This document shows positions 1,925 through 46,768 of a stretch of 63,021 bases of DNA, piece after piece. The notes below the pieces were generated by a model that ran no database searches, was not told the DNA's origin, and was given only the letters and a program-made list of their open reading frames with translations. The position numbers were made by a program, and so were the translations under genes. The stretch comes from a virus (taxonomy: Duplodnaviria; Caudoviricetes): positions 1 through 63,021 of the IMG/VR virus record IMGVR_UViG_3300037518_000374; one strand, 5' to 3'. Within the stretch, counting starts at the first letter, position 1. Each line of letters starts with the position of its first letter.

Positions 1925-4288
1925 TCATGGAATGAGAATAAACCTTGTTCTGGTGCTTGGTGTTGAGCCAATGTTCGCAGGTGCGTTTGTTCTGTTGGTC
2001 ATCTTGCCAATCTCTCGTCTGGCGACCGGGGTCAGCGTGAACACCCCGTTCTCGGGATCGACGAACGGGCTCGCCGTCAGCACGATGCTGTTGGCGTCGT
2101 TGCCGGCTTGCCACGCCAGTGCGTCAGGGTCGGACAAATACGTCGTCCACGCCGCCTGTAGTGTGGCCAGCGTAGTGTAGTCGGGTGCCGATTCGTCTGT
2201 TCCGAAGTTCGCTATTCCGGCCGAGCCAGACACATACACGTTCCAGTCGCAGATGCCGCCCGTAAACTGTGTCACGCTGTCTTTAGACGGCCCGGCGAAC
2301 CCGATTGCCAGCGTCGCCCCGCCCGATGCGTCAATGATGTTTCCGATAATCTCGTACCCCCGGGAGTAGACGTACTCGTGAGCCTCCAGTGTTCCGATCG
2401 CGTCTGCCCCGGCCGACTGGCACAGAGTAATCGTGCTCGTGTCGGCGTTGGTACAGATATCGTAGATTCCGGCGTTGCCGGCCGGAGCCGTGATGTAAAT
2501 CTGGTCGCCCGGGGATAGCCTGTAATTCGTGAACGCGGCCGCCCCCGTAGTGATGGTCTTGGTCGAGTCCGTGTAGGTCCCGCCGTGAAAAAAGAAGTCA
2601 GTAGCGGACCCGTCGTGCGTGCTGGATTGGTTGTTGTTGTTATAGGTGAACTGGATCGTCTCTTCGTCGCCGTTTCCGTACAGGCTATTGCCGTAGAACT
2701 TGCAACCCTTCGCCCCTTTGATGAGCATGCAACAATTCGTGGCGGTTGCCATGTTCCCAATCCAGGTGTTGCCCTCGCCCTTGTCGATCAGACTCCCATA
2801 ATCGCCGTTGTACGATTCGTTGTTTTGAATCAGGCACCCGTAAGTCCCCTCCAGTAACGCAATGCCGTGCGATGCGTCATCGGCGAACGTGACAGTGTTG
2901 CCCGAGATAACCCAACCCTGGAACTCGCGACTGCCCGCCGCCACTTGCTCACCCTCACCCCCAAGAGCAATGCCGTAGCTGGCCGGGCTTCCGCTGACAT
3001 CTACAGTCACGACGTTGTTCAGAATATAGCCTCTGGCGTTTCGGGTTGCGCCGTTCGATTGAAAGTAGAGGCCACCCTTATTGCCCGTCGCGTCTGTGTG
3101 GGTGGCGTTCAGTCTGTTTCCAACAACGTAAATCGTCTCAGCGCCCGTGAATCCGGTCCCCATCCCGAGGCAATACATGGAAGCACTTGGGTTGGTGGTG
3201 TCCTCATCAATCAGGTTCAGTGTGCTGTCGGTGATGGAAACCTTGTTCAGTAGCCCGTTTAGCATGATGCACTGGTTTACGGCCGTCACCGTCGCCCCCG
3301 AGATGGCCGCATCGCCCATGTCCTGCAATCGGATACCCGCCTCCGCCGAAGAGCCGTTTGAGTCGCAATAGAACGTCCCCCCGGTGATGGTGACGGTTTG
3401 GGTTGGGCTACGAAACGCGCCCGCCGAAGATCCGTTCGCGTCCAGTGCCCACGCCAGATCGTAGTCGGCAATGCCGATCGTTCCGCCGCTGATCACCAGG
3501 TCGGCGGTGTCGGTAACGGCATCGGGATACCAGTGGATGCACCGCGTGACCGAGTCGCTCGGGGTCAAGGTCGCGGATTCGATCGTCAGGTTCCCGCCGC
3601 TGTTCGATCGGCCCCCGTCGATGATGTCTGTCCCGCCACCACTGTTGCGCACGTCGATGTCCTGCAGGATGAGGTTCGCGGTCCCCATTGAGATGCAGTC
3701 GCCGCTTGTGCCGCTCCGGTCGAATACCGCCAGCCCCTCGCCCAACGTGTCCAGCGTCACCGTGTCGGTGTCGCCCGTGCTGTTTACTGTGAGCCCCGCC
3801 GACACATGCGCCTCGGGCGTGAGCTTGACCATCACCTCGTTCGAGGTTGTGGCTGCAATGCCCGACGCGATTGCGTTCGCGACCGTGTTCTCGGGGCCGG
3901 AGGTGGCAGAAATGGATGCGTCCGTGTAGTTGTCGTTAACCTCGTCCCCAATAACGTATTCCACCGCCATGTTGCTGGCGTCCGTATACGTCACCACCTT
4001 GTAGAGACCCGCCTTGGGGGCGCCGGTGTCCCAAGATATGAACAGGTAGTCTCCTACCGCCACCCCCGTAAAAGGATCGCCGCTCTTAGTCAGAAACGCA
4101 CTGGCGGGCTCGGTGGCGAAAATATAGTCGAACGCGGCGCCCGTGACCGCACCCGACAGCTTCACGCTCGCCCGCCCGTCGTTCGCCGACAGCCCGTCCG
4201 TCGCGTCCGCAAATGTCCACACGTCGATCGCGGCATGGGCCGGAAGGGCGAGGGACAGGCAGGCAAGAATGCACACAATCCATCGCAT
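1925..4288 (-). CDS. right-handed beta-helix (pectin lyase-like) protein with Sec-type signal peptide; tailspike/depolymerase-like
   Basis: 787 aa; N-terminus MRWIVCILACLSLALPAHA; repeated IxGNT/IxNN beta-helix motifs; rich in G, T, D, N. Confidence 0.65.
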   Translation of the reverse strand: MRWIVCILACLSLALPAHAAIDVWTFADATDGLSANDGRASVKLSGAVTGAAFDYIFATEPASAFLTKSGDPFTGVAVGDYLFISWDTGAPKAGLYKVVTYTDASNMAVEYVIGDEVNDNYTDASISATSGPENTVANAIASGIAATTSNEVMVKLTPEAHVSAGLTVNSTGDTDTVTLDTLGEGLAVFDRSGTSGDCISMGTANLILQDIDVRNSGGGTDIIDGGRSNSGGNLTIESATLTPSDSVTRCIHWYPDAVTDTADLVISGGTIGIADYDLAWALDANGSSAGAFRSPTQTVTITGGTFYCDSNGSSAEAGIRLQDMGDAAISGATVTAVNQCIMLNGLLNKVSITDSTLNLIDEDTTNPSASMYCLGMGTGFTGAETIYVVGNRLNATHTDATGNKGGLYFQSNGATRNARGYILNNVVTVDVSGSPASYGIALGGEGEQVAAGSREFQGWVISGNTVTFADDASHGIALLEGTYGCLIQNNESYNGDYGSLIDKGEGNTWIGNMATATNCCMLIKGAKGCKFYGNSLYGNGDEETIQFTYNNNNQSSTHDGSATDFFFHGGTYTDSTKTITTGAAAFTNYRLSPGDQIYITAPAGNAGIYDICTNADTSTITLCQSAGADAIGTLEAHEYVYSRGYEIIGNIIDASGGATLAIGFAGPSKDSVTQFTGGICDWNVYVSGSAGIANFGTDESAPDYTTLATLQAAWTTYLSDPDALAWQAGNDANSIVLTASPFVDPENGVFTLTPVARREIGKMTNRTNAPANIGSTPSTRTRFILIP

Positions 4289-4293
4289 CGCCG

Positions 4294-7200
4294 CTACTCC
4301 TTTAACATCTGCCGTCGGTATAGCCGCCTCAGTGCCGACCCGAAACTCGTGAGGTTTCCGTTGTCGTCGATCATATCCGTCTTGTAGCCCCGCCGGCGGT
4401 ACTCGCGAGTCAACAATAGTCTACGCTCTCGGTTGTCGATATCCAGTTCGTCCAGAATCTCGCGGGAGCGACGGATGGATTCCTGTTTATTGATCCTGGT
4501 ATCCACATTTTCGGAGGCGGGGTTCTGGGCCGCCGCGAACGCCTTGCGCTGAAGATGCTGGTCGCGAATATTCCGCAACGGCTCGGACAACCGGTCGTCG
4601 GTCAGGATGTTGGGAAACTCGGGCAACTCTTCCTTGCCCAACCCGAACCGGGACAGGCCGGTCAGGTACCGCTCCTCCCTGAGTTGGTCCTGGCGGTTCG
4701 GCATGGCCCGCACAACATCCCGAACCTCGGACAAGATGTCGGCCGTCCACTCCATCCTGTAAAGCGCCTTCGTGACCGCACTATCTTCCGACCCGGCGGT
4801 CTTCAGGCTCCCCTTTTTCTGCTGCAATCGCCCCAGCTCGCCGTAGAAGTTGTCAAGCGACACACCCCGCCCGATGGTCTGGCCCACCGACGAGAAACCC
4901 AGTACGCGCTTGACGCGCTCCATGATCTCCGGGCTGCCCTTTGTGATCGGCTCAAAAGCCCTCAGTATGTCGATACCCATTCCGCCCGTCGCGTTGCGGA
5001 TGGCGTGGTCGATGGCGGCCGGCGACTTGTGAATGAGCTGACCGATGTAGCGCGAGGCCAGCGTGTTGTACTGGTAGAATTGGTCCTGCGGCATGCGCGT
5101 CTCACGAAGCCGATCGTCCACGATGGGCTGATCTCGCCAGAGGTCGTAGTTCATCTTCAGTTCCAGCGGCAGAAGGCCGGCGTCCGGAACGAAGTCAGTC
5201 CAGTGCGGAACCTGGGTCTTGAGGAACTGACCGAACCCATCCGCGACCGTCTGGGGCTCCTTCCGATACCATGCGTCCACGAGCATTTCCGGGAGGGCCG
5301 AGAACAGCCATCCGTACTCGAACGGGCGGGGGATGGAGATCGTGGTGTTGCCGACCCGTAAATTCCAGGCCAGGAACTTCCGCCACGCGGGCAACTCGCG
5401 GTACCAGTCCTCGTCCTTGACGTGCCACCAGTAGACGAGTGTCGGGATCGTCAGGAGGGTTCCGGCCCTCACGAACGTCCGAACCATGCGCTTCTTATCG
5501 CCCCTCATGACGCCGCTTTTCCGAAGGGCCTGAATCGGCGCCTGGACCGCGACCTGCGAGAAGGCCGCGTACTTGTTCAGGAACATCGTCAGCGAACCGC
5601 CACGCAGGAAGTCGATCGTGTTCTCACTTCCGGCCATGAAAGCCTGGACAATCTTGCCGAGCGGGACGGGCCTGCCCTGCCGGATGTCTTCCTCGGTGAC
5701 GCCCTGCTGGCGCATGACCTCCAGCATCTCTCCGATTCTCGGTCCGCCTTCCGGAATCGCCACGATGGACTGGATCGTGTCGAGCGGCGTGGACAGCACG
5801 TTCCACAGGCTCCGGCCCTCGGCGCCCTGGAGAATCTGCCGGACCTGCCGGTAGGACGACTTGGGGTCGCGTCCGAAGTAGGAGGCGAACTCGCCGCCCC
5901 ACCGTTTCCAGAATTGCTGTAGCTGGTCCTCCGGCTTGCCCCGCAGTTCCCCGATCGTCCATTTCGCGTTCAGGTACGTCCCGTACATGATCCGGCCGAG
6001 CGCGCCCAGCATACTACCGCCCTCGGTCTGGATCATGGAGTGTGGAACGTCTCGCACGAGGTTCCGGTACAGGCCGAACGACGCCTTGAGCCCGACCGCC
6101 CCCAGCTTGACCGCCTGCGTCATCTTCGCGGCCGGCTTCAGGATGGTTTCGAGCCAGATCGGCAACGTGATGGCGTTCTGGCCACTAGCCGACAGGTAGA
6201 TGTCCGGGTCGATCTCGTACCACTCCTGCTTGCCGTCCTTCCACCGGGCCAGCATGGGCGTCCCGTCGCGGACGTATTCGGTGGGGGTGAAGAACTCCAG
6301 GACCTGGTCCATATCGGCCTGCTCGATGTCGATCCCGGCATCCTCCAACTGCTGGGCTATCCGTTCGAGCGTGACGGTCTGGCGCTTGATGGGGGTCGGG
6401 AGCGGCCCTTCGACCAGCCACCCCATCCCATCGACACTTCTGGATGCGTCGATAAGTGCGTTTCGCACGACGTTGGCGGTCGCCTTGGCGTATACCCGTT
6501 CGGCCTGGGTGTACATCGCCACCATCACGTCCACCACCTGGCGAGGGCTGCCCTTCATACCGAAGAACGCCTTGCTGCGGTCCAACAGCCCGCCCCCGCG
6601 GCGCTTGCCGGACCGGTACTCCTCCAACACCCGGAACATCGGCACGTAGGCCGGATAGGTGTCGATCATCGCCTGGGCCGACTCCTCGCTGAGCCCCCCC
6701 ACTTCGGCGTACATCCGCACCAGTGCGTTGTTCCATTCCGTTATGGCGTCCGCCGCCTCAACGAATCCGGGCCGGTCCCGCAGGGCATCGTACACGCGCT
6801 GGGCATCCGGCAAGGAGAATCCGGGGTTCTTGGGCCTCGCAGTTCCGCTCTTATCGACGAAACCCCACGTCTCGATCCCGTGACGGGCCATCATGAAGTC
6901 CGTCAGGTCCGCGACGTTGGCCTCCGTGATGGGTCCGATCTTCCGCACGGCCTCCACGATCCCGTCCGACATCTTGCGGTCGTCCACCAGACTGTGGACG
7001 CCGTAGCGATACGCCTGCTCCGCACGGGACCGGACGGCGCCGAACAGCCGGCGGGCCATGTCGTAGAACCGCTGCTTTGGCGGAAGGGGCGTGCCACGCT
7101 TCTCCTCGATCAGGTTCTGTGCCCACTCCAGCTCGACAAGCCGGTCATCCGCCACCTGCCGGACCTTCCGAAACAGGCGACCCATGCGCTCGGACCGGCC

Positions 7201-10200
7201 CTCAAGGGGATAGGCCGTTCCGGTCTCGCTTCGGGCAGCCCGCAACCTCGCGCGCGCGCCCTCGACGCCCGGCGCCCGATATTGGTCGATCTCGGCCTTC
7301 GTCTTCTGAAGCCCGTCGGCGAGTTCCGGGTGTTTTTTCATCCACGTCTGGGTGAACCAGCGGTAGGTCCGGGGCGCCCTGATGGCGGCGTCGTCGTGGG
7401 TCAGGAAGAACCGGACGAACTCCGCGAACCCTTCGTCGGGCCGCATCTGTTCCTGGTCGTAGTCCAGGTCCGATAGTTCGGACTGGACGGTCGAGGGCGC
7501 GAGCGCAACCGCCTGCGTGCCCTTGTCGATCTTGTGCGCCACCTCGTGAGTCGTGACGCCGAGATCGCCGCCGAACTCGCTCTTTCGCCGCACCACCTCC
7601 GGCCTGACCTTGAACTTCCCGGCCATCGGCCCGCGCATCTTTCCGGTGCGGATCGGGACCCTGAACCGGCGCTGCATGTTGGCGATGATTTCGTGGTTGC
7701 TGATAGGCTTTACAGGTCCCTGGGACTTGGGCGGAAGTTCACCCGCGATTTCCGGCGGTGCGTTCTGGACAGGCGGCGGCGGCGGCGTTAACGTCCGCTG
7801 TCCAGTCCTCTTCAGCTCGGCTTCCATCCGCTTCTGGGCGGCCTTGTCGATGTCGGGACGAAGCAATCCCTCTTTCGTAATGACGCCCGATTCCGTAACC
7901 TTTTCGCCCTTGATGTTGGCGCCGAACTCGAAATCGGTCTGCTCGCCCGTCAGCGGCTCCGTCACCTTCTGGCCGAACAGGCCGGCGGGCGGAACCCCGG
8001 GGGCGGCGGGCGGCACCTCGGCTGGCTCCGGCGGAGTCTTTAGCGAACCCTCGTCGATCGCCAGCTCGCTTCCGAGCGGAAGATCGAACGTCAAGCCGTC
8101 CTCGACCCGAACCGTTCCGCCATCCTGGTCAACATCTGTGACACTGTAGGGCTCGCCCGCAACGGTAAACTGCTCCCCCACGTCCAGCATTCCGGTCGGC
8201 ACGACCTCGGGATTCTTTCCCTTGGCCAACTGACTTCCCTCGGGCGATGAACTCACGGCATGGTAATGCTGAAGGTCATACAACTCCTGCGGAGTGAATG
8301 CACCTGGATTCTTGCGGGCGAACTCCATTGTCCGGTCGATCGTTCGCTTTTTGCCGTCATCGTGGAATCGGATGATCCGCTCTGCCATGCGGTCCGTCCC
8401 GATCTCGGACATGACATCCGACCCGGAAGCGCTATTCCATCTCGGATCGCTTTTCCGAACGACCTTGACGTTCATCTGAAGATTCTTGGGCAATCTTTCG
8501 CGAAGCTCACGAGCCGCTGACCGGCCCTCTTTCGTGTCTTTGAAGCTAAAGCCAGATGTCGGCTCGTTAAGGCGCTGGAATTCCTCGACTTCGCCCTCAC
8601 CCGCAATCGACTCGCCAACGTCTTCGCCGCTGATAACCCCTCGCAACCTTTCGTGGATATCCAGAACCCTCTGCTCCGCCTGCTTTATTCCTTTTCGGGA
8701 CGGCCGGCGCGGCTTGGGTGCCTTGGGCTTCAGGTCGGGGTAGTCGGCCAGCACGTCGAGCGGGACAGGCTTACCCGCGCGGACAGCCTGCTTGACCATC
8801 ACTTGGCGAGCATCGCTTAACGCCTTCTGTTTCGATCGTGATCCAACAGAAAGAACTGTCTCGCCTGTCGGCATTCGAACGCGCATGTCCTTTCCGGTTT
8901 TCTGAAGCGTTGCGGCCTGGACGAACTCATCCTTCGTCATCTCCCATGGACGCTTGCCTACCCTCGCTTCTTCTTGCTGACCCGGTGCTTGTGGAACTTG
9001 TCCAACGTCTTCTTGTCCGGGCACTTTCCCTGCATCTTGTCGGGGTTGTGCTCGCAGCCCTTCATGAACCGCTTCTGCTTTTTGCTCTTGTACGGCACGA
9101 CCGATCTCCTGTGTGGGGGTAGGGATTGGCGGCGCCTCGACGGTCGGCGCCTGGGATTCGATGATGGGCGGCTCTCCGGGGGGCCTTGGCCCGCCGCGAC
9201 TACCGAACCGCCCAGACTCGGCCAGGTCCTCCTGGGTCCGCTGCTGTTGCTCCGGCGTCAGCGTACCGGTCTCGCCCTGCGGGCCCAGTGATCCAGGATG
9301 GACCGGCTCAACGAGCGGCGGCGGCTCAATCGCGACGGGCTGGCCAACCGGGGCGGGGGGGGCCTCCGTGCCCGGCCGGACAGGCGGTGGTGTCCGCCCG
9401 AGCCGACCCAATCCTGCCGTGACCGCCTGACCGCCCACGATCGGAACGGCGAACGCCGCCGCCTCCTGACCAAGCTCCGAGAAGGTTGGCAGGCCGCCCT
9501 CCAGCTCCGCTCCTGCCGCCGCGGCCGTCATGCGCAACACGTCCGACACCCGCTCCTCGCCAATCTCCTCCAGGATGCCGTGGTAGCCCGCCTTCTCCAG
9601 ATGCCGCATGAACTGCCTGAACGATCTCCCGCCGTCCGCCATCCAGGCGCCGGCCAGGGCCGCACGGGCGCGACCCAGCGGGACCGTCACGGTTTCGGCG
9701 CCCGGAACCTTGCTTGCGATCTTCGCCACGGCCCGTCCGCCACGCCTCAGCGCCCCGCCGCTCCCCTCCCCCAAAACCTCGAAGGTCGTGTCGAGCGTGG
9801 CGTCCCGAAGGGCGGCGATGAAATCCTGGCCCGGGCTTGCGACGAACGCCTTGAGCGACCCTTCATCGTTGCGGTCGAACCGGTAGTCCGGCATCATGCG
9901 CGCAACGGTGTCGCGTGCGATCCGGGGGCTGAAGGCTGGCAGGCGGGCGATCGTGTCGGCACCAAGGCGGGTCAGGGTAGTCGCGGCCCTTGCGCCCGCT
10001 ACCCTGGATAGCGACTTCTGGACCGCCCTGGCCGCCGCCTTGCGGGCTACCGAGGACACGCCCTTACGCACCAGTGACGCCATGCCGCCCGATGCAAGGA
10101 ACTCGCCGGCGAACGGAACCGTCTCGGTCACGATCCGGGCTGTTCCGCCGCCCCATGTCGTTCCGCGAGCCTGGTTCGCCATATCGCGCTGGAAATCGGC

Positions 10201-41210: not shown

Positions 41211-41590
41211 TTACCCCCGAGATGATTGCCGCGGCAGCTTGCCTAACACTCGCCACCGTGGGCGTCGTCCACCTCGCGTTGTCGGTCCTGCGCTTTTTCG
41301 GACGGCTCGGACGCGCGATAGGCCGCAGCGCCCCCCGCGTGGCTCGTGATCCGCAACCCGCCCGAGCACGCCGTCGGGTCGTGGCGAGCGTCACGGCTAC
41401 GACGCCAACGCTCCCAACCGCCATCGACACACCGACCCTCACGCCCGAGCAGCAGGACGCGGTAGTGGTCCTGACCAAACTCGGCGAGCACAAGGGGCGG
41501 GCCGAGGACGTGCTGCGTCACGTGGTGGGGCGTCCCGATGTCCAGACGGTTGAGCAATGGGTTGAGCTGTACTACCAGCTCAGACCGTAG
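41207..41590 (+). CDS. TM-anchored protein with RuvA-C/UBA-like C-terminal helices
   Basis: DAVVVLTKLGEHKGRAEDVL...TVEQWV resembles RuvA domain III. Confidence 0.5.
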   Translation: MITPEMIAAAACLTLATVGVVHLALSVLRFFGRLGRAIGRSAPRVARDPQPARARRRVVASVTATTPTLPTAIDTPTLTPEQQDAVVVLTKLGEHKGRAEDVLRHVVGRPDVQTVEQWVELYYQLRP

Positions 41591-41618
41591 GTGCCCCGAT
41601 GGGGCAGGGAGAATAACG

Positions 41619-43280
41619 ATGGTGATTTGGACCTACGGGGCCAAGGCCCCGAAACTCGGCGGAGAATCGATCAGCGATCAGATGCGGATGGCCCACCGGT
41701 ATCGCAACACGCTCGTCGAGATCGAGTTGCGGCGGCGCGAACGGGCGAGTCAGATCATCCGCCAGCAGTGTCCCGAGGTGCTGGAGATCGACGACGCGAT
41801 CTCACGCCTCGATGACCAGATCGACACCGCCGCCGCCGCCGTCAGGACGGCGAACCAGTCGGCCCGCTCCCGGACCGTGACGGCGGAGCAACGGTCCGAG
41901 ATCAAGGCCCTGCGCGCAGAGCGCAAACCGCTGTACGCGAGGCGCAAACTACTGCGAGCAGAACAGTTCGGGGAGGGCTCGATTTCCCGCGCGCTCCTCG
42001 ACGGGGCCGACGCCGAGTCGGTCGCCGAAGTCAAGGCCGCGCGGGCGGCGTGCGGGTGCTACTGGGGGACCTACCTGCTGATCGAGGCGGCGGCCAAGCA
42101 GTTCCGCAAGGGCACGCCCCCACGATTCACTTCGTATCGCGGATACGGGCGCGTGGGGGTCCAGTTCCAGGGCGGGCTGCCGTTCGGCGCCGCACTGAGC
42201 GGCGCGGATAAGCGGCTCCAGCTCGTGCCCACGAACAATCCGCGGTGGCGAACCTGCCGAATGAGGATCGGCAGCAACGCCGACCGCTCGCCAATCTGGG
42301 CCGAGTGCCCCGTCAGGCTGCATCGCCAGCCGCCGGACGGCGCGGTGATCAAGTGGGCATGGCTCAAACGTACACCGCGAGGCCCGAACCGCCGTATTGA
42401 CGAGTGGTCGCTCCAGGTGGTGCTGGACGGTGTTCAGCCGCTCGCCGAGCAGCGGCCCGGACCCGGATTCGGCGCGGTCGCGGTCGATGTGGGGTGGCGA
42501 TGGCTGGGCGATCGGCTCCGCGTGGCCTACTGGGTCGGGCTCGACGGCCGGTGCGGCGAGCTGGCGATCGGCGAGCACGACCTGGATCGGTGGCTCTATG
42601 CCGACGTACTCCAATCTGAACAGGATCGTCGGTTCGACGCGATGCGCGCGCACATCATCGCGTGGCGCGAGCGGGTGGGGCCGGCGATGCCGGACTGGCT
42701 CGCCGAAGCGTTCGCCACGTTGCCCAAGTGGCGCTCGACTGGACGACTGGCCGCACTCTGCCGGCGGTGGGGGCAGGAGCGGGTCGATGGTGATGCCGAG
42801 CTGATGCCGGTACTCGATGAGTGGATGAAGCGAGACTGTCGCCTCCACACCGAGCGGTCGTGCCTGCTGAAGAAGGCGGCGCGATGGCGAGAGGACCTAT
42901 ACCGCCAGTTCGCTGCCGACCTGCAGAACCGATACCAGACCCTACTGGTCGAGGACGCCGACTGGCGTGACCTCTTGCGCGCACCGGACGTGACGGACGA
43001 GGACGAGACCAATCGGCGCCGCCGGTACGCCCGAATTGCGTCGCCCGGCATGATGCGTCAGATTCTACGTGCGTGCGGGCGTGCGGTGAAGCTCGCGAGC
43101 GAGTACACTACGCAGCGATGTGGTGCGTGCGGAGAAATAGAGGCGTTCGACGCGGCGGAGAATCTCGTGCACACATGCCGGCATTGTGGCGCGCGATGGG
43201 ATCAGGACGAGAATGCGTGCCGGATCATGCTGGGACTGCATTCCGGCGAGTTGGCCCCGGCGAGCGGACCGGTGGCCTGA
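41619..43280 (+). CDS. cas12m: miniature type V CRISPR effector, Cas12m (V-U1)-like, 553 aa
   Basis: AHRYRNTLVEIE, long coiled coil, YWGTY, VGVQFQ, RLHRQPP, AVDVGWR (RuvC-I D290), LVED (E445), IASPGMMR, CxxC...CxxC, WDQDENA (D530); adjacent to a CRISPR array. Confidence 0.8.
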   Translation: MVIWTYGAKAPKLGGESISDQMRMAHRYRNTLVEIELRRRERASQIIRQQCPEVLEIDDAISRLDDQIDTAAAAVRTANQSARSRTVTAEQRSEIKALRAERKPLYARRKLLRAEQFGEGSISRALLDGADAESVAEVKAARAACGCYWGTYLLIEAAAKQFRKGTPPRFTSYRGYGRVGVQFQGGLPFGAALSGADKRLQLVPTNNPRWRTCRMRIGSNADRSPIWAECPVRLHRQPPDGAVIKWAWLKRTPRGPNRRIDEWSLQVVLDGVQPLAEQRPGPGFGAVAVDVGWRWLGDRLRVAYWVGLDGRCGELAIGEHDLDRWLYADVLQSEQDRRFDAMRAHIIAWRERVGPAMPDWLAEAFATLPKWRSTGRLAALCRRWGQERVDGDAELMPVLDEWMKRDCRLHTERSCLLKKAARWREDLYRQFAADLQNRYQTLLVEDADWRDLLRAPDVTDEDETNRRRRYARIASPGMMRQILRACGRAVKLASEYTTQRCGACGEIEAFDAAENLVHTCRHCGARWDQDENACRIMLGLHSGELAPASGPVA

Positions 43281-43428
43281 GAATCGCGGTACCCGCTCGA
43301 TATCACGTGGTGACAATGGGATACGGCGTTTTCGGGGTGGGGCTCGGGTGATGGAAATTAGAACAAACAGGGACCGCTCGAAACGTACCGCGCAACTGTC
43401 TGCCGAATCGCGGATTGCGACGCGGGCC
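43281..43428 (+). promoter_or_regulatory. CRISPR leader
   Basis: Non-coding gap between the cas stop and repeat 1; CCGCTCGA occurs twice. Confidence 0.55.
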
Positions 43429-44779
43429 GTCTCGGCCCGTGCGCAGACGGGGATACTCTGCGACAAAACCATCCCATCCTTGATGCGGACTGACTCGCCT
43501 GTCTCGGCCCGTGCGCAGGCGGGAATACCCTGCGACTGCCGGTGCCAAGGCAGGAGGACTACGGCGCTGACTTCGTCTCGGCCCGTGCGCAGGCGGGAAT
43601 ACCCTGCGACTCATCGCGCACCCCCGCGCACGCTGCGGACGGCCGGGTCTCGGCCCGTGCGCAGGCGGGAATACCCTGCGACTTCGCCGCCAGATCACGG
43701 CGCACGACCTCGGGCTTCGTCTCGGCCCGTGCGCAGGCGGGGATGCTCTGCGACGACCGCAAAGTGGTGCTCCGCTTCAAGGAGCGTCTCAGCCCGTGCG
43801 CAGACGGGGATGCGCTGCGACGCCCTGGGCGTGGTCGGCAAACTGCCGGCTGTCCGATGTCTCAGCCCGTGCGCAGGCGGGAATACCCTGCGACTACCCC
43901 GGGTGCTTGTCGAAGGGCGTTTGTCGCAGAGTCTCGGCCCGTGCGCAGGCGGGAATACCCTGCGACGCCTGGTCGGTCGTCTCAGCCCGTGCGCAGACGG
44001 GTATGCTCTGCGACGATCGCATCGGTGTACGCCCGGAGGAACGAGCCGTGTCTCAGCCCGTGCGCAGGCGGGGATACTCTGCGACGGTCAAGGTGGCCTT
44101 GCCGTCGATCTTCAAGGTGAACGTCTCAGCCCGTGCGCAGGCGGGGATACCCTGCGACCGACGATTCGCAGGTGTCGCAGAGTATCCCCGTCTGGTCTCG
44201 GCCCGTGCGCAGACGGGTTTGCTCTGCGACGCACTCAGCGCGATTCGTTCCACGGTATCTGCTGCGTCTCGGCCCGTGCGCAGGCGGGAATACCCTGCGA
44301 CGCCTGGTCGGTCGTCTCAGCCCGTGCGCAGGCGGGGATACTCTGCGACGGCCAAAGCCCTGCTCTCCGGCGCTTCGTCGTCTCGTCTCGGCCCGTGCGC
44401 AGACGGGGATGCTCTGCGACGCCTTCCAGCAATTCCATCCAATTCAAGCTGCTGGCAGTCTCAGCCCGTGCGCAGACGGGGATGCTCTGCGACGCCTTCC
44501 AGCAATTCCATCCAATTCAAGCTGCTGGCAGTCTCAGCCCGTGCGCAGGCGGGGATACTCTGCGACGAGTCGGGCCGGGGCCGCGTATCCATTGTCTCTT
44601 GGTCTCGGCCCGTGCGCAGACGGCAATACTCTGCGACCGGCACGGTTGGGGGCGATCCCTTCGACCCCGTCAGTCTCAGCCCGTGCGCAGACGGCAATAC
44701 TCTGCGACGAGTCGCCCCGGGGCCGCATACTTATTGTCCTTGGGTCTCAGCCCGTGCGCAGACGGGGATGCTCTGCGAC
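43429..44779 (+). CRISPR. CRISPR array, 20 x 36-bp repeats, 19 spacers
   Basis: Repeat 1 is GTCTCGGCCCGTGCGCAGACGGGGATACTCTGCGAC, with variants at seven positions; spacers 31-38 nt except two of 12 nt; spacer 15 = 16 and 8 = 13. Confidence 0.98.
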
Positions 44780-44815
44780 TTCCAGTGGGTCTGCGGCCCG
44801 CCGCCGGACGAATGG

Positions 44816-45121
44816 TCACGCCGGGGGGTCCTGCACCGCCGGCAGCACCACCGCCCGCGTCCCCCACGACTCACAGGACGGGCAAAAAGCATGCTGCCCG
44901 AACACCGCCCCGCCGTGCGCCAGCACGAACCGCCCCCCGCAGTGCTCACAAATGCGGGTCTCGTGAGTGCCGCTCAGGCTCGATACGACCGCATCCCATT
45001 CGATCGCTGGGCGTTCCGCCGCGTGGCACCGGTGGCAGAGCCCGATGGTCGTGTTGGGTGTGGACCGCCCGCACTGTCGGCATTCGGTCGTGGGGCGTGG
45101 CCCTCGTCTGATCGGCATCAC
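44816..45121 (-). CDS. multi-zinc-finger small protein
   Basis: Four CxxC pairs; converges on the CRISPR array. Confidence 0.6.
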   Translation of the reverse strand: MMPIRRGPRPTTECRQCGRSTPNTTIGLCHRCHAAERPAIEWDAVVSSLSGTHETRICEHCGGRFVLAHGGAVFGQHAFCPSCESWGTRAVVLPAVQDPPA

Positions 45122-45474
45122 GCCCTCTCCGCCGAACGCGCGACCGTCCAGTCCTTCAGCGGCCATTCGCCGACGCTACGCAACCACCCAACCAGCGACT
45201 CGGATAGCAGAACATCCAGCTCTTGCGTCGCCTCGACATCGAAATGGTGATACGTGAGGCAGTCGTCCAGTCTCATCGCGACGTGATCGAGCACCGCGTG
45301 ACCCAGCCCGCGTCGGATGTCCGCCACCTCGACCTCCACCACCTGATCGAGCCAGACCTCGCCCGGCCCCTCCTGGTGGGCCGCCTCGACGGCCTCGTGT
45401 TTGGTGCGGAATCGTCCGTGCCAGTCCTCGGAATCTGTGCTCCTCGCCCATGCCCAATCGCCGGTCGGTCTCAT
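45118..45474 (-). CDS. phage hypothetical protein
   Basis: WHGRFRTKHEAV motif; coupled. Confidence 0.6.
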   Translation of the reverse strand: MRPTGDWAWARSTDSEDWHGRFRTKHEAVEAAHQEGPGEVWLDQVVEVEVADIRRGLGHAVLDHVAMRLDDCLTYHHFDVEATQELDVLLSESLVGWLRSVGEWPLKDWTVARSAERA

Positions 45475-46247
45475 TGTGTCGCCTCCTCTTCGTACATCAT
45501 GGATTGCGTCTCTGCGGGCGCGGCGGGCGGCGGGCTGAACGGCAGCACGTCCTGGGCGAGTCGCCGGGCCGCGATCTCGCAGTAGCGCTCTTCGATCTCG
45601 ATGCCGATCCCGGAACGCCCCAACAATTTAGCCGCAATCAATATCGAGCCAACACCCATGAACGGGTCCAACACTCTCGCACCAGAATCAGATGAGTTAC
45701 GGATTATCGGCGAACATACCGATGGTGGTTTTTCTGTCGGATGCACCTTCTTGGATATGCCAGATGCACGGACAATATCCCCCATTTCCAAACACCGCAG
45801 CTTGTGTTTCTGGTTCGGGCAGTAGGCAATCCATTCGTGCGTGCGTCTCCATGCGTAACCCATTCCAATCTTCTGTTTGTCCCACACGATCACATTGCGC
45901 GGACGCAACCTGTAGTTTATCTCAATCCCGCTCTTAACATCAGTGAATACGTAAAGTGCACCGGTGTTGCGCAGCAGTTTTCGGCACTCCGCCCAAACGA
46001 AATCAAGATCGTCAAACGACATGGTTCCGAACCACGGCATGCCATCGGCAGCGGCCAATCGCTTCCCGTTGAATCTGTCGCGTGAAACCAGTCTTGTCGT
46101 GCTTCCCCAACTAACATCGACATCAAGAGACTGATACGGCGGGTCCGTAAGTACGAGGTCGATCGAATCCCGCTCCAGCGCCGGCAACACCTCGCGGGCA
46201 TCGCCGTGGTAAATCGTGATCCCGGCATTGTCATAATAGAGGCTCAC
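45471..46247 (-). CDS. N6-adenine/N4-cytosine DNA methyltransferase (beta class)
   Basis: LTDPPY, HPTEKP, VLDPFMGVGS. Confidence 0.9.
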   Translation of the reverse strand: MSLYYDNAGITIYHGDAREVLPALERDSIDLVLTDPPYQSLDVDVSWGSTTRLVSRDRFNGKRLAAADGMPWFGTMSFDDLDFVWAECRKLLRNTGALYVFTDVKSGIEINYRLRPRNVIVWDKQKIGMGYAWRRTHEWIAYCPNQKHKLRCLEMGDIVRASGISKKVHPTEKPPSVCSPIIRNSSDSGARVLDPFMGVGSILIAAKLLGRSGIGIEIEERYCEIAARRLAQDVLPFSPPPAAPAETQSMMYEEEATQ

Positions 46248-46768
46248 AAACCACCCCCAGCGCGCTCCAACACCCACCGCTGAATCGCAATCGCGTCCTG
46301 CTCGAACGGATGCAGATGCCCGCGCCCCGCCGCCCAGTCCCGCAGCGGCGGCATCGCGACCCCCTCCCGCTCCTGCACGACGTGCCACACCTCGTGGCAC
46401 ATCGCCGCCACGCCGGCGGGGCTTCGGTCAAGGCACTCGCGGCACCCAGGCCCCCGCTCGTGGCCGAGCTGGCCGGGACTGAGCAGCAGCGTGCCGCCCA
46501 GCACGAAGTAGGGGCTGGGACCGCCCACACGCAGGCTGAGCTTGCCCAGCGTCGCGATCCGTGGATCCAGCGCGGCCGGCACGGGGCAGATGTCGCGCTC
46601 CGCCAGACCGTGGGCGCGGCAGTACAGGTCGATCCAGCGTTCCGTTTCGTCGCACAGGTCGGGCGGGAGCTGGCCGTACTGCCGGACGTGCTGCTCGGCC
46701 GCGTTGTAGGCCGGCTGGGGTCCGTTGCATGCGGCCAGCAGCAGTAGGATCGGGGCGGCGCGGTTCAT
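46244..46768 (-). CDS. lipoprotein with HExxH zincin-like motif
   Basis: Lipobox LAAC; HEVWHVVQ ... HPFEQDA. Confidence 0.65.
   Translation of the reverse strand: MNRAAPILLLLAACNGPQPAYNAAEQHVRQYGQLPPDLCDETERWIDLYCRAHGLAERDICPVPAALDPRIATLGKLSLRVGGPSPYFVLGGTLLLSPGQLGHERGPGCRECLDRSPAGVAAMCHEVWHVVQEREGVAMPPLRDWAAGRGHLHPFEQDAIAIQRWVLERAGGGL

What the first reader, a model, noticed from the sequence alone, without database searches (positions are those of the whole stretch)
44159..44194. Spacer 11 is antisense to a repeat-spacer junction of the same CRISPR family
Seen: spacer CGACGATTCGCAGGT-GTCGCAGAGTATCCCCGTCTG. Its last 21 nt are the exact reverse complement of the last 21 nt of repeat 1. Its first 15 nt would match a spacer beginning ACCTGCGAATCGTCG, which is absent from this array. 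Because the Cas12 seed is at the 5' end, this array would be spared. Inference: the spacer was acquired from another array with this repeat (rival phage or host), meaning a CRISPR that targets a CRISPR. Alternatively it is an embedded anti-repeat RNA that pairs with repeats and modulates processing.
Basis: partly seen in the sequence, partly recalled or inferred. Interest (0 to 1): 0.88.

Follow-up and report, generated by a model that had tools for sequence, protein, structure and literature searches.

The report
Spacer copied from a CRISPR array
One spacer in a phage-borne Cas12m CRISPR array was evidently copied, in reverse, from the repeat-spacer border of a CRISPR array of the same family, which hints that phages may aim CRISPR at each other's CRISPR arrays, although no such target array has been found.

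Summary
Spacer 11 (44159-44194, 36 nt) sits between two intact repeats. Its last 21 nt are the exact reverse complement of the last 21 nt of repeat 1 (chance about 3e-10). Its first 15 nt occur nowhere else in the window.

The window is a 63-kb phage record. The array (20 heterogeneous 36-nt repeats) lies just downstream of a type V-M Cas12m homologue, a family shown to bind DNA without cutting it and to need no tracrRNA.

Best reading: a genuine spacer captured from the antisense strand of a repeat-spacer junction, in a sibling phage's array or an earlier version of this one. It has normal spacer length, and the match starts at the repeat's last base and runs to the spacer's end. The copy differs from both neighbouring repeats, which argues against a local rearrangement. 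A second spacer (7) ends with 8 nt of the same kind.

No source array was found. The 22-nt junction gave 0 viral, 0 genome and 1 metagenome hit, and that hit lies in an ordinary gene and is compatible with chance.

Published Cas12m structures read only about 17-18 bp, so the anti-repeat is probably a passenger for DNA targeting. It could still trap a neighbouring repeat in a 21-bp RNA duplex. The embedded anti-repeat idea has no support from three relatives' arrays.

Moderately interesting; function unproven.

The parts
41538..43280 (+). cas12m-like effector gene (P0001, 580 aa as called; real start probably M28 at 41619)
   Evidence: PADLOC Cas12u1 E 2.4e-82 over residues 28-565. PDB 23vw_A 'Cas12m' E 7.8e-55 and Cas12m2 8hhl_A E 2.1e-17. 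Pfam Cas12f1-like TNB domain E 3.6e-07. RuvC-like D317/E472/D557 by alignment.
43281..43428 (+). leader between the effector gene and the first repeat
   Evidence: Read. No sigma-70-like promoter was found by the simple scan, so the promoter is not located.
43429..44779 (+). CRISPR array: 20 repeats of 36 nt (13 distinct variants) and 19 spacers (31-38 nt, plus two 12-nt units)
   Evidence: All 20 repeats are on the + strand, none reversed. Repeats end ...CTGCGAC.
43444..43464 (+). last 21 nt of repeat 1, the only repeat copy exactly complementary to the inverted stretch in spacer 11
   Evidence: 0 mismatches; all other repeats 1-3 mismatches.
44123..44158 (+). repeat 11, intact; its last 21 nt differ from the inverted copy at 2 positions
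   Evidence: Predicted to pair with 44174-44194 (-37.4 kcal/mol, z -3.7).
44159..44173 (+). spacer 11, PAM-proximal 15 nt. Unique sequence: the reverse complement of the start of the presumed source spacer.
   Evidence: no other copy in the window. With the next 7 nt it matches L015 22/22, inside a coding gene.
44174..44194 (-). inverted copy of the repeat's last 21 nt (the 'anti-repeat'), occupying the PAM-distal end of spacer 11
   Evidence: exact, - strand; chance about 3e-10.
44195..44230 (+). repeat 12, intact; its last 21 nt differ from the inverted copy at 3 positions
   Evidence: Alternative pairing partner (-37.1 kcal/mol, z -4.2), and the one chosen in the 143-nt fold.
43895..43930 (+). 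spacer 7. Its last 8 nt (43923-43930, GTCGCAGA) are the reverse complement of the repeat's last 8 nt, so it may be a second junction-derived spacer.
   Evidence: terminal match k=8. Chance about 1.3e-3 over 17 spacers.
43931..43996 (+). first copy of a 66-nt exact duplicate (repeat + 12-nt mini-spacer + 18 nt of the next repeat). Together with the second copy it brackets units 9-12, which include spacer 11.
   Evidence: (family D4).
44266..44331 (+). second copy of the 66-nt duplicate

Best explanation
Spacer 11 is a genuine spacer of a phage-encoded type V-M (Cas12m) array. It was captured from the antisense strand of a repeat-spacer junction in a CRISPR array of the same repeat family. That array belonged either to a sibling phage that shared a host cell or to an earlier version of this phage's own array.

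Shown:
- The array, the Cas12m homologue, the exact inverted 21-mer, the normal 36-nt length and the intact flanking repeats.

Inferred from published Cas12m work:
- The array is transcribed from the + strand, and Cas12m cuts within the repeats. The crRNA carries about 30-36 nt of repeat followed by the spacer, of which only the first 17-18 nt pair with DNA next to a 5' T-rich PAM.
- The working guide of crRNA 11 would therefore be the 15 unique nt plus 2-3 nt of the repeat's end.
- It would place a non-cutting Cas12m roadblock on the first bases of one particular spacer in the source array. That could block transcription of the array downstream of that point, or replication.
- The phage's own array is spared because none of its spacers begins with that 15-mer.

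The remaining 18 nt or so of anti-repeat are a passenger for DNA targeting. In the primary transcript they can form a 21-bp duplex with the handle of repeat 11 or repeat 12, which would probably impair maturation of one of those two crRNAs.
For: 1. Length and flanks. The unit is 36 nt, within the main range of this array (17 of 19 spacers are 31-38 nt). It lies between complete repeats.
2. Shape of the match. It begins exactly at the repeat's last base and runs unbroken to the spacer's 3' end. The spacer boundary truncates it, not divergence.
3. Source variant. The inverted copy equals the repeat-1 variant but differs from the adjacent repeats at 2 (R11) and 3 (R12) positions. It was not copied from its neighbours.
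4. Second case. Spacer 7 ends with 8 nt of the same antisense repeat end (chance about 1.3e-3).
5. Sampling model. Using the window as a stand-in for a sibling genome, 41 of 4557 TTN-flanked 36-nt protospacers (0.9%) are junction-spanning. One such spacer among 17 is then unremarkable (P = 0.14), while two would be an excess (P = 0.01).
6. Evidence of array exchange. The array is mosaic. A 66-nt exact duplicate brackets units 9-12, spacer 15 equals spacer 16, and spacers 17 and 19 are diverged versions of one target. This fits recombination among related arrays.
7. System identity. Cas12m homology. No tracrRNA needed, self-processing, T/C-rich or TTN PAM, 17-18 bp heteroduplex, binding without cleavage (passages).
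8. PAM hint. One X2 contig carries the spacer-2 sequence in a non-array context, preceded by TTG.
Against: - No source was found. The junction 22-mer gave 0 hits in IMG/VR and 0 in GTDB genome contigs. It gave 1 hit in metagenome contigs, which lies inside a 1101-codon ORF of L015 with no repeats around it.
- No other array with this repeat turned up in IMG/VR. In genome contigs there were 21 scattered single hits and no array.
- No cas1 or cas2 was found in the 63 kb (the record is 71% complete). How this array gains spacers is unknown, and V-M systems generally lack adaptation genes.
- The PAM of the presumed protospacer lies in unknown sequence and cannot be checked.
- The predicted hairpin with repeat 11 may prevent crRNA 11 from ever being loaded.
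- The spacer-7 case rests on 8 nt noticed after the fact.
Confidence: 0.65

Rival explanations
1. Local rearrangement without spacer acquisition. A template switch, fold-back or small inversion during replication or repair wrote an inverted copy of a repeat's hairpin end into an existing spacer.
For: The repeat's 3' part is a quasi-palindrome (stem 14-19 with 29-34), a classic substrate for template switching. The array shows other rearrangements: a 66-nt duplicate, two 12-nt units and a duplicated spacer. No adaptation genes are present.
Against: The inverted copy differs from both adjacent repeats (2 and 3 mismatches) and equals only repeat 1, which is 730 nt away. Both flanking repeats are intact and the unit keeps an exact spacer length of 36 nt. 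A simple flip of the hairpin loop would share only 19 of the 21 nt and would require the repeat's 5' half in front of it, which is not there (read).
Confidence: 0.12
2. Functional embedded anti-repeat. The 21 nt were selected because, as RNA, they pair with repeat handles. They would act in cis on repeat 11 or 12, or in trans on crRNAs carrying the repeat-1 variant. The effect would be to modulate processing, or to neutralise crRNAs of a rival with the same repeat.
For: Predicted duplexes are strong: -37.4 and -37.1 kcal/mol, z -3.7 and -4.2. The 143-nt context gives -73.3 kcal/mol with z -4.8. The duplex would cover stem II and one strand of stem I of the handle. Complementarity is perfect only to the repeat-1 variant.
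Against: No antisense match longer than 8 nt, and no terminal match of 6 nt or more, was seen in 0 of 8, 0 of 22 and 0 of 21 spacers of three relatives' arrays (L012, L013, L037). Cas12m works with a single crRNA and no tracrRNA. No separate promoter or terminator was detected (a weak scan). It would also damage the phage's own crRNAs, which differ from the perfect match at only 1-3 positions.
Confidence: 0.08
3. The spacer came from an ordinary gene resembling the one in L015 (a 22/22 match to spacer positions 1-22). Its 3' end was later overwritten at the 7-nt microhomology GTCGCAG.
For: There is an exact 22-nt match to L015 3826-3847, inside a long ORF. Twenty-two nt exceeds the 17-18 nt that Cas12m reads.
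Against: The hit is compatible with chance. A 19-base GC-rich pattern gave 21 scattered hits in 596 Gb of genomes, where 4.3 are expected under uniform composition. That scales to roughly 0.1-0.6 expected hits for this 22-mer in a collection of about 1e12 bases; the collection size is my assumption. The remaining 14 nt match L015 at only 6 positions (read). The 3 nt 5' of the match are GCT, not TTN. L015 is 54% G+C against 63% for the phage. The model needs an extra event.
Confidence: 0.03
4. Assembly artefact (chimera or mis-join within a repetitive array).
For: Arrays are hard to assemble from short reads. Logan contigs over the array are fragmented.
Against: A second assembler's contig (X1 record 4, 238 nt, 0 differences) runs through spacer 10 end, R11, spacer 11, R12 and spacer 12. 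An inverted 21-mer inside a unit of exact spacer length is not a typical mis-join.
Confidence: 0.03

Closest known systems
Type V-M CRISPR-Cas12m (MmCas12m/Cas12m2, GoCas12m; formerly V-U1)
   Same: Effector homology. 36-nt repeat ending AC, with two stems compatible with a pseudoknot. Array directly downstream on the same strand. No tracrRNA-like sequence elsewhere in the window. No cas1 or cas2. One probable protospacer preceded by TTG.
   Different: Carried by a phage. D-E-D rather than H-D-D residues at the RuvC positions (D-E-D variants are also reported not to cut). Repeats are unusually heterogeneous (13 variants in 20 copies). One, perhaps two, spacers derive from array junctions.
Virus-borne CRISPR arrays used in conflicts between related viruses (archaeal virus mini-arrays; CasPhi and Cas-lambda phages; myxophage MV-1 Cas12m)
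   Same: An array plus a compact effector on a virus, without adaptation genes. MV-1 is described this way (610-aa Cas12m, 8 spacers, no cas1/2/4, no targets found) in passages of bioRxiv 10.64898/2026.09.14.751636. Targeting of close relatives is the proposed role.
   Different: Here the inferred target is the relative's CRISPR array itself. I found no paper describing that.
tracrRNA anti-repeats (types II, V-B, V-E, V-F and others)
   Same: A stretch of about 20 nt complementary to the repeat, able to form a repeat:anti-repeat duplex.
   Different: It lies inside the array as part of a spacer, on the same transcript. It has no transcription unit of its own, is absent from relatives, and the effector family needs no tracrRNA.
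Self-targeting spacers and CRISPR repeat-like regulatory RNAs
   Same: A guide whose match lies within CRISPR-cas loci rather than in ordinary mobile-element genes.
   Different: Described regulatory cr-like RNAs are stand-alone repeats with partial spacers that target cas promoters (bioRxiv 10.1101/2023.03.03.530964, abstract start seen in the search listing only). This is a full-length spacer, antisense to a repeat-spacer junction, with no match in its own locus.
RNA anti-CRISPRs (phage-encoded repeat mimics; recalled, not read here)
   Same: A phage RNA that would interfere with another CRISPR system through repeat sequence.
   Different: Those are sense copies of repeats that bind Cas proteins. 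This would be an antisense copy that pairs with crRNA, and nothing shows that it acts.

Membership tests
Type V-M CRISPR-Cas12m | Effector homologous to Cas12m over its full length | tested here: met
   PADLOC Cas12u1 E 2.4e-82, residues 28-565 on model positions 3-527 of 533. PDB Cas12m 23vw_A E 7.8e-55, residues 30-566.
Type V-M CRISPR-Cas12m | Binds DNA without cutting it (roadblock interference) | not testable with these tools
   Only the residues can be read: D317/E472/D557. The NAR 2024 passages say D-E-D Cas12m variants also failed to cut dsDNA.
Type V-M CRISPR-Cas12m | Single crRNA, no tracrRNA; repeat with two stems or a pseudoknot, ending AC before the spacer | tested here: met
   No repeat-complementary sequence outside the array. 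97.7% of cells are paired in the two-stem model, but only one pair covaries (19-29: AU 7, GC 3, GU 2, other 1 of 13 distinct rows). All 20 repeats end GAC.
Type V-M CRISPR-Cas12m | No adaptation genes in the locus | tested here: met
   No Cas1 (PF01867) or Cas2 (PF09827) in six frames of the 63 kb. Cas4 was not searched. The record is estimated 71% complete.
Type V-M CRISPR-Cas12m | 5' T- or C-rich PAM (TTN for Cas12m2) | tested here: inconclusive
   One X2 contig carries the spacer-2 sequence between unrelated flanks, preceded by ...CCGTTG. Four other spacer searches in IMG/VR found nothing.
Spacer captured from a repeat-spacer junction of a CRISPR array | Normal spacer length between intact repeats, with a match that starts at the repeat's terminal base and is cut off only by the spacer's end | tested here: met
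Spacer captured from a repeat-spacer junction of a CRISPR array | A source array containing the junction exists | tested here: not met
   Junction 22-mer: IMG/VR 0, GTDB genomes 0, JGI metagenomes 1 non-array hit. Exact matching only, and records very near the window may have been left out by the tools.
Spacer captured from a repeat-spacer junction of a CRISPR array | A PAM next to the protospacer in the source | not testable with these tools
   The PAM would lie at positions 16-18 of an unknown spacer.
tracrRNA-like anti-repeat | Complementarity to the repeat of about 15 nt or more | tested here: met
   21 of 21 to repeat 1; 18-20 of 21 to the other repeats.
tracrRNA-like anti-repeat | Conserved in related loci, with its own transcription signals | tested here: not met
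   0 of 51 spacers in L012, L013 and L037. No promoter-like site in 43200-45000. L014 does have a separate inverted five-unit array upstream of its gene. The arrays of L009-L011 were not tested.

The most novel reading that the evidence does not exclude
Phage Cas12m arrays are aimed in part at the CRISPR arrays of competing sibling phages. Two of 17 distinct spacers here (11 and 7) are antisense junction captures, against 0.4% per spacer expected from random PAM-flanked sampling (P about 0.002 for two antisense captures). A non-cutting Cas12m parked on the first bases of a rival's spacer would shut off the rival's pre-crRNA downstream of that point. The same RNA is also a 36-nt perfect antisense to the rival crRNA's handle plus seed. 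This would be CRISPR interference directed at CRISPR, at both the DNA and the RNA level.
Probability: 0.22. Interest if true: 0.75.

Novelty: new variant of a known kind. Interest (0 to 1): 0.5.

Why it matters
Virus-borne CRISPR systems are thought to serve competition between mobile elements, but their targets are mostly unknown. The one published phage Cas12m array I could read about found none.

A spacer that can only have come from a CRISPR array of the same family is direct sequence evidence of one thing. Either sibling phages carrying such arrays meet in one cell, or an array can take spacers from itself. Either would bear on how V-M arrays, which have no adaptation genes, grow.

If the targeting is functional, a DNA-binding Cas12m silencing a rival's array would be a new counter-defence logic. 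It could be tested with existing E. coli Cas12m silencing assays.

If it is incidental, it remains a useful caution: hits of spacers to other arrays, usually discarded as artefacts, can be real protospacers.

Tried and rejected
**Searches for a source or target that found nothing useful**
- Junction 22-mer: IMG/VR 0 and genome contigs 0. Metagenome contigs gave 1 hit, L015, in a long ORF with no repeats, judged compatible with chance.
- Repeat patterns: IMG/VR 0 and 0. Genome contigs gave 21 single scattered hits in unrelated taxa and no arrays.
- Whole array against GenBank phages: no match. Against plasmids: 3 weak chance-level hits.
- Spacers 2, 15, 17/19 and 7 in IMG/VR: 0 each.
- Spacers against the rest of the window: nothing longer than 13 nt. 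Against 29 fetched loci: only the L015 hit.
- The 12-nt mini-spacer plus 5 nt of repeat as a possible regulatory guide: only its own two copies and one 3-mismatch site.

**Ideas rejected**
- Loop-flip of a degenerate repeat: shares 19 rather than 21 nt, and the repeat's 5' half is missing (read).
- My first idea that the repeats carry no TT on either strand was wrong. 8 of 20 repeats have TT on the - strand and repeat 12 has it on the + strand. 25 of 4557 TTN sites would put most of the seed inside a repeat.

**Read laying**
- X2, X8 and X10 show no cover over 44015-44257 (spacers 9-12), although X2 is deeper than X1. No contig joins across the gap.
It is not used as evidence.
- No RNA holder was listed.

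**Rfam and tRNA**
- Rfam: no family at gathering score in the window.
- One tRNA-Ile at 35-107.

**Literature**
- Six phrases for array-targeting or repeat-derived spacers found 1 irrelevant paper. A five-term search listed 15 of 27 papers, none on this topic judging by titles and abstract starts.
- Papers seen as passages only: PMC11013384, PMC10442227, bioRxiv 10.64898/2026.09.14.751636, PMC12607003.
- Supplementary tables were not seen. The Cas12m repeat sequences and the 134 family members of PMC11013384 could show whether other V-M arrays hold such spacers.
- Wu et al. 2022, the archaeal-virus mini-array work, the CasPhi/Cas-lambda papers and the RNA anti-CRISPR paper are recalled only.

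**Not done**
- Structure prediction, complex prediction, protein database searches and the protein atlas were not used.
- The arrays of L009-L011 (degenerate units of about 47 nt) and the 3-repeat array of L014 were not tested for junction-derived spacers.
- Cas4 was not searched.
Full report
**What is there**

The window is a 63,021-base IMG/VR virus record, estimated 71% complete. It carries phage genes: portal, large terminase, internal virion protein and helicase. It has only distant relatives among GenBank phages; the terminase matches at 28% identity or less.

At 43429-44779 on the + strand lies a CRISPR array of 20 repeats of 36 nt. There are 19 spacers, with lengths 36, 38, 36, 36, 31, 37, 36, 12, 35, 37, 36, 35, 12, 35, 37, 37, 35, 35, 35.

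Immediately upstream on the same strand is an ORF (41538-43280, P0001) that is a full-length Cas12m homologue:
- PADLOC Cas12u1, E 2.4e-82.
- PDB Cas12m 23vw_A, E 7.8e-55, and Cas12m2, E 2.1e-17.
- Pfam TNB domain.
- The alignments begin at residue 28-30, so the real start is probably M28.
- D317, E472 and D557 occupy the RuvC positions.

No Cas1 or Cas2 is encoded in the 63 kb.

Spacer 11 (44159-44194) is 36 nt long and lies between complete repeats 11 and 12.
- Its last 21 nt are the exact reverse complement of the last 21 nt of repeat 1.
- In a search allowing 3 mismatches, the 21 hits were the 20 repeats plus this one reverse-strand site.
- Only repeat 1 shares the exact variant; shuffles gave none.
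- A composition-aware chance estimate is 3e-10.
- The first 15 nt have no other copy in the window.
- A Logan contig of run X1 (238 nt, no differences) runs from spacer 10 through spacer 12. The unit is therefore not an oddity of one assembler, although X1 may be the source sample.

**What it most likely is**

Four features point to a real spacer captured from array DNA.
1. The unit has a normal spacer length and intact repeats on both sides.
2. The match starts exactly at the repeat's last base and continues to the spacer's end. It is cut off by the spacer boundary and not by divergence, as expected if a 36-nt protospacer straddled a repeat-spacer border.
3. The inverted copy differs from the adjacent repeats at 2 and 3 positions and equals only repeat 1, which is 730 nt away. 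This argues against a local fold-back or template switch.
4. Spacer 7 ends with GTCGCAGA, the reverse complement of the repeat's last 8 nt. The chance of such a terminal match over 17 spacers is about 1.3e-3, although I noticed it after the fact.

The array also looks like a product of recombination among related arrays.
- A 66-nt exact duplicate (repeat + 12-nt mini-spacer + 18 nt) brackets units 9-12.
- Spacers 15 and 16 are identical.
- Spacers 17 and 19 are diverged versions of one target.
- The 20 repeats fall into 13 variants.

**How surprising is a junction-derived spacer?**

I used the window as a stand-in for a sibling genome. Of 4557 TTN-flanked 36-nt protospacers, 41 (0.9%) run from a spacer into at least 8 nt of a repeat: 22 sense and 19 antisense.
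- If all 17 distinct spacers came from such a genome, at least one junction spacer has P = 0.14.
- At least two has P = 0.01; two antisense ones has P = 0.002.
- One is thus an ordinary sampling outcome. Two would suggest that arrays are favoured sources or favoured targets.

**How it would work**

Passages from the Cas12m literature give the following.
- A single 50-60 nt crRNA with no tracrRNA.
- T/C-rich PAMs, TTN for Cas12m2.
- A repeat handle of about 30 nt folded into a triplex and pseudoknot.
- A 17-18 bp guide-target duplex.
- Stable DNA binding without cleavage, also in D-E-D variants, which blocks transcription or replication.

All 20 repeats here end in AC, as the Cas12m2 scaffold does. 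They fit two interleaved stems, although only one pair covaries. One X2 contig carries the spacer-2 sequence in a non-array context, preceded by TTG.

By inference, crRNA 11 uses its 15 unique nt plus 2-3 nt of repeat end as the guide. It would place a non-cutting roadblock on the start of one spacer in the source array. The phage's own array has no such spacer and is spared.

The rest of the anti-repeat is not read on DNA. In the primary transcript it is predicted to pair with the handle of repeat 11 (-37.4 kcal/mol, z -3.7) or repeat 12 (-37.1, z -4.2; the latter wins in the 143-nt fold at -73.3, z -4.8). This would probably cost the phage one of those two crRNAs.

**What speaks against it**

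No source was found.
- The junction 22-mer is absent from IMG/VR and from GTDB genome contigs.
- Its one hit in metagenome contigs (L015) lies inside a 1101-codon ORF with no repeats.
- That hit is 22/22, but the other 14 nt agree at only 6 positions and the 5' flank is GCT.
- A 19-base pattern of similar composition gave 21 scattered hits in 596 Gb, where 4.3 are expected under uniform composition. One 22-mer hit in a collection of about 1e12 bases (my assumption) is therefore within chance, roughly 0.1-0.6 expected.
- No other array with this repeat appeared in IMG/VR or in genomes. Those tools may leave out records very near the window.
- How a V-M array without adaptation genes acquires spacers is unknown.

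**Rivals**
- **Embedded regulatory anti-repeat.** The strong predicted pairing favours it. However, no antisense match longer than 8 nt, and no terminal match of 6 nt or more, occurs in 0 of 8, 0 of 22 and 0 of 21 spacers of three relatives' arrays (L012, L013 and the GenBank phage Rctr197k, L037). The family also needs no tracrRNA.
- **Local rearrangement.** Disfavoured by the mismatches to the neighbouring repeats and by the exact spacer geometry.
- **Origin from a gene like L015's, with later overwriting.** Needs an extra event.
- **Assembly artefact.** Unlikely given the second contig.

**Comparison and novelty**

The locus passes the testable criteria for type V-M. Phage-borne Cas12m has been reported in a 2026 preprint. 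A Cas12m-like gene next to an annotated CRISPR also sits in a GenBank phage record, KX853510.

Virus-borne arrays aimed at related viruses are known (recalled). A spacer derived from, and so presumably aimed at, another CRISPR array is something I could not find in print.

I rate it a new variant of a known kind.

Noticed in passing
window 43931-43996 and 44266-44331: An exact 66-nt duplicate (repeat + 12-nt mini-spacer GCCTGGTCGGTC + first 18 nt of the next repeat) brackets units 9-12. It suggests unequal recombination between related arrays. The mini-spacer has no target in the window.
   Followed up: partly
window 44421-44457 = 44494-44530; 44567-44601 vs 44709-44743: Spacers 15 and 16 are identical (37/37). 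Spacers 17 and 19 are diverged versions of one sequence, as if two strains of one target were recorded. No protospacer was found in IMG/VR.
   Followed up: partly
window 43895-43930: Spacer 7 ends with 8 nt that are the reverse complement of the repeat's end, so it may be a second junction-derived spacer. Its first 23 nt have no IMG/VR match.
   Followed up: partly
window 43537-43578 (run X2): One Logan contig carries the spacer-2 sequence between unrelated flanks, preceded by TTG. It is probably a protospacer in the same habitat with a TTN PAM. Other X2 loose ends at 43646 and 44744, and a joint 44672>44708, remain unexplained.
   Followed up: no
L009 2717-4052, L010 7769-9103, L011 1692-3027: Relatives of the effector (34% identity) are followed by 23 or more units with a period of about 47 nt. 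Their hairpin repeats are very degenerate, with stems that change in a compensatory way, and their spacers are only about 19 nt. This is an unusual array type.
   Followed up: no
L014 4453-4673 and 7935-8124; L012 5918-6000: L014 has a five-unit array in inverted orientation upstream of its cas12m-like gene as well as a three-repeat array downstream. L012 has two repeat copies abutting the gene's start, which may be autoregulatory cr-like units.
   Followed up: no
L037 (KX853510.1, Virus Rctr197k) 4007-5875 and 5909-7423: A GenBank phage record encodes a Cas12m-like protein (31.8% identity, annotated 'similar to transposase') next to an annotated CRISPR of about 22 heterogeneous repeats. The 2026 preprint's claim of a first phage Cas12m therefore overlooks public records.
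   Followed up: partly
window 44816-46400 (- strand): Directly downstream of the array lie a small zinc-ribbon/Lar-like ORF (weak Pfam hits), an ORF with no hit, and an N6/N4 DNA methylase (E 1.8e-24). Together they may form a counter-defence cluster next to the CRISPR locus.
   Followed up: no
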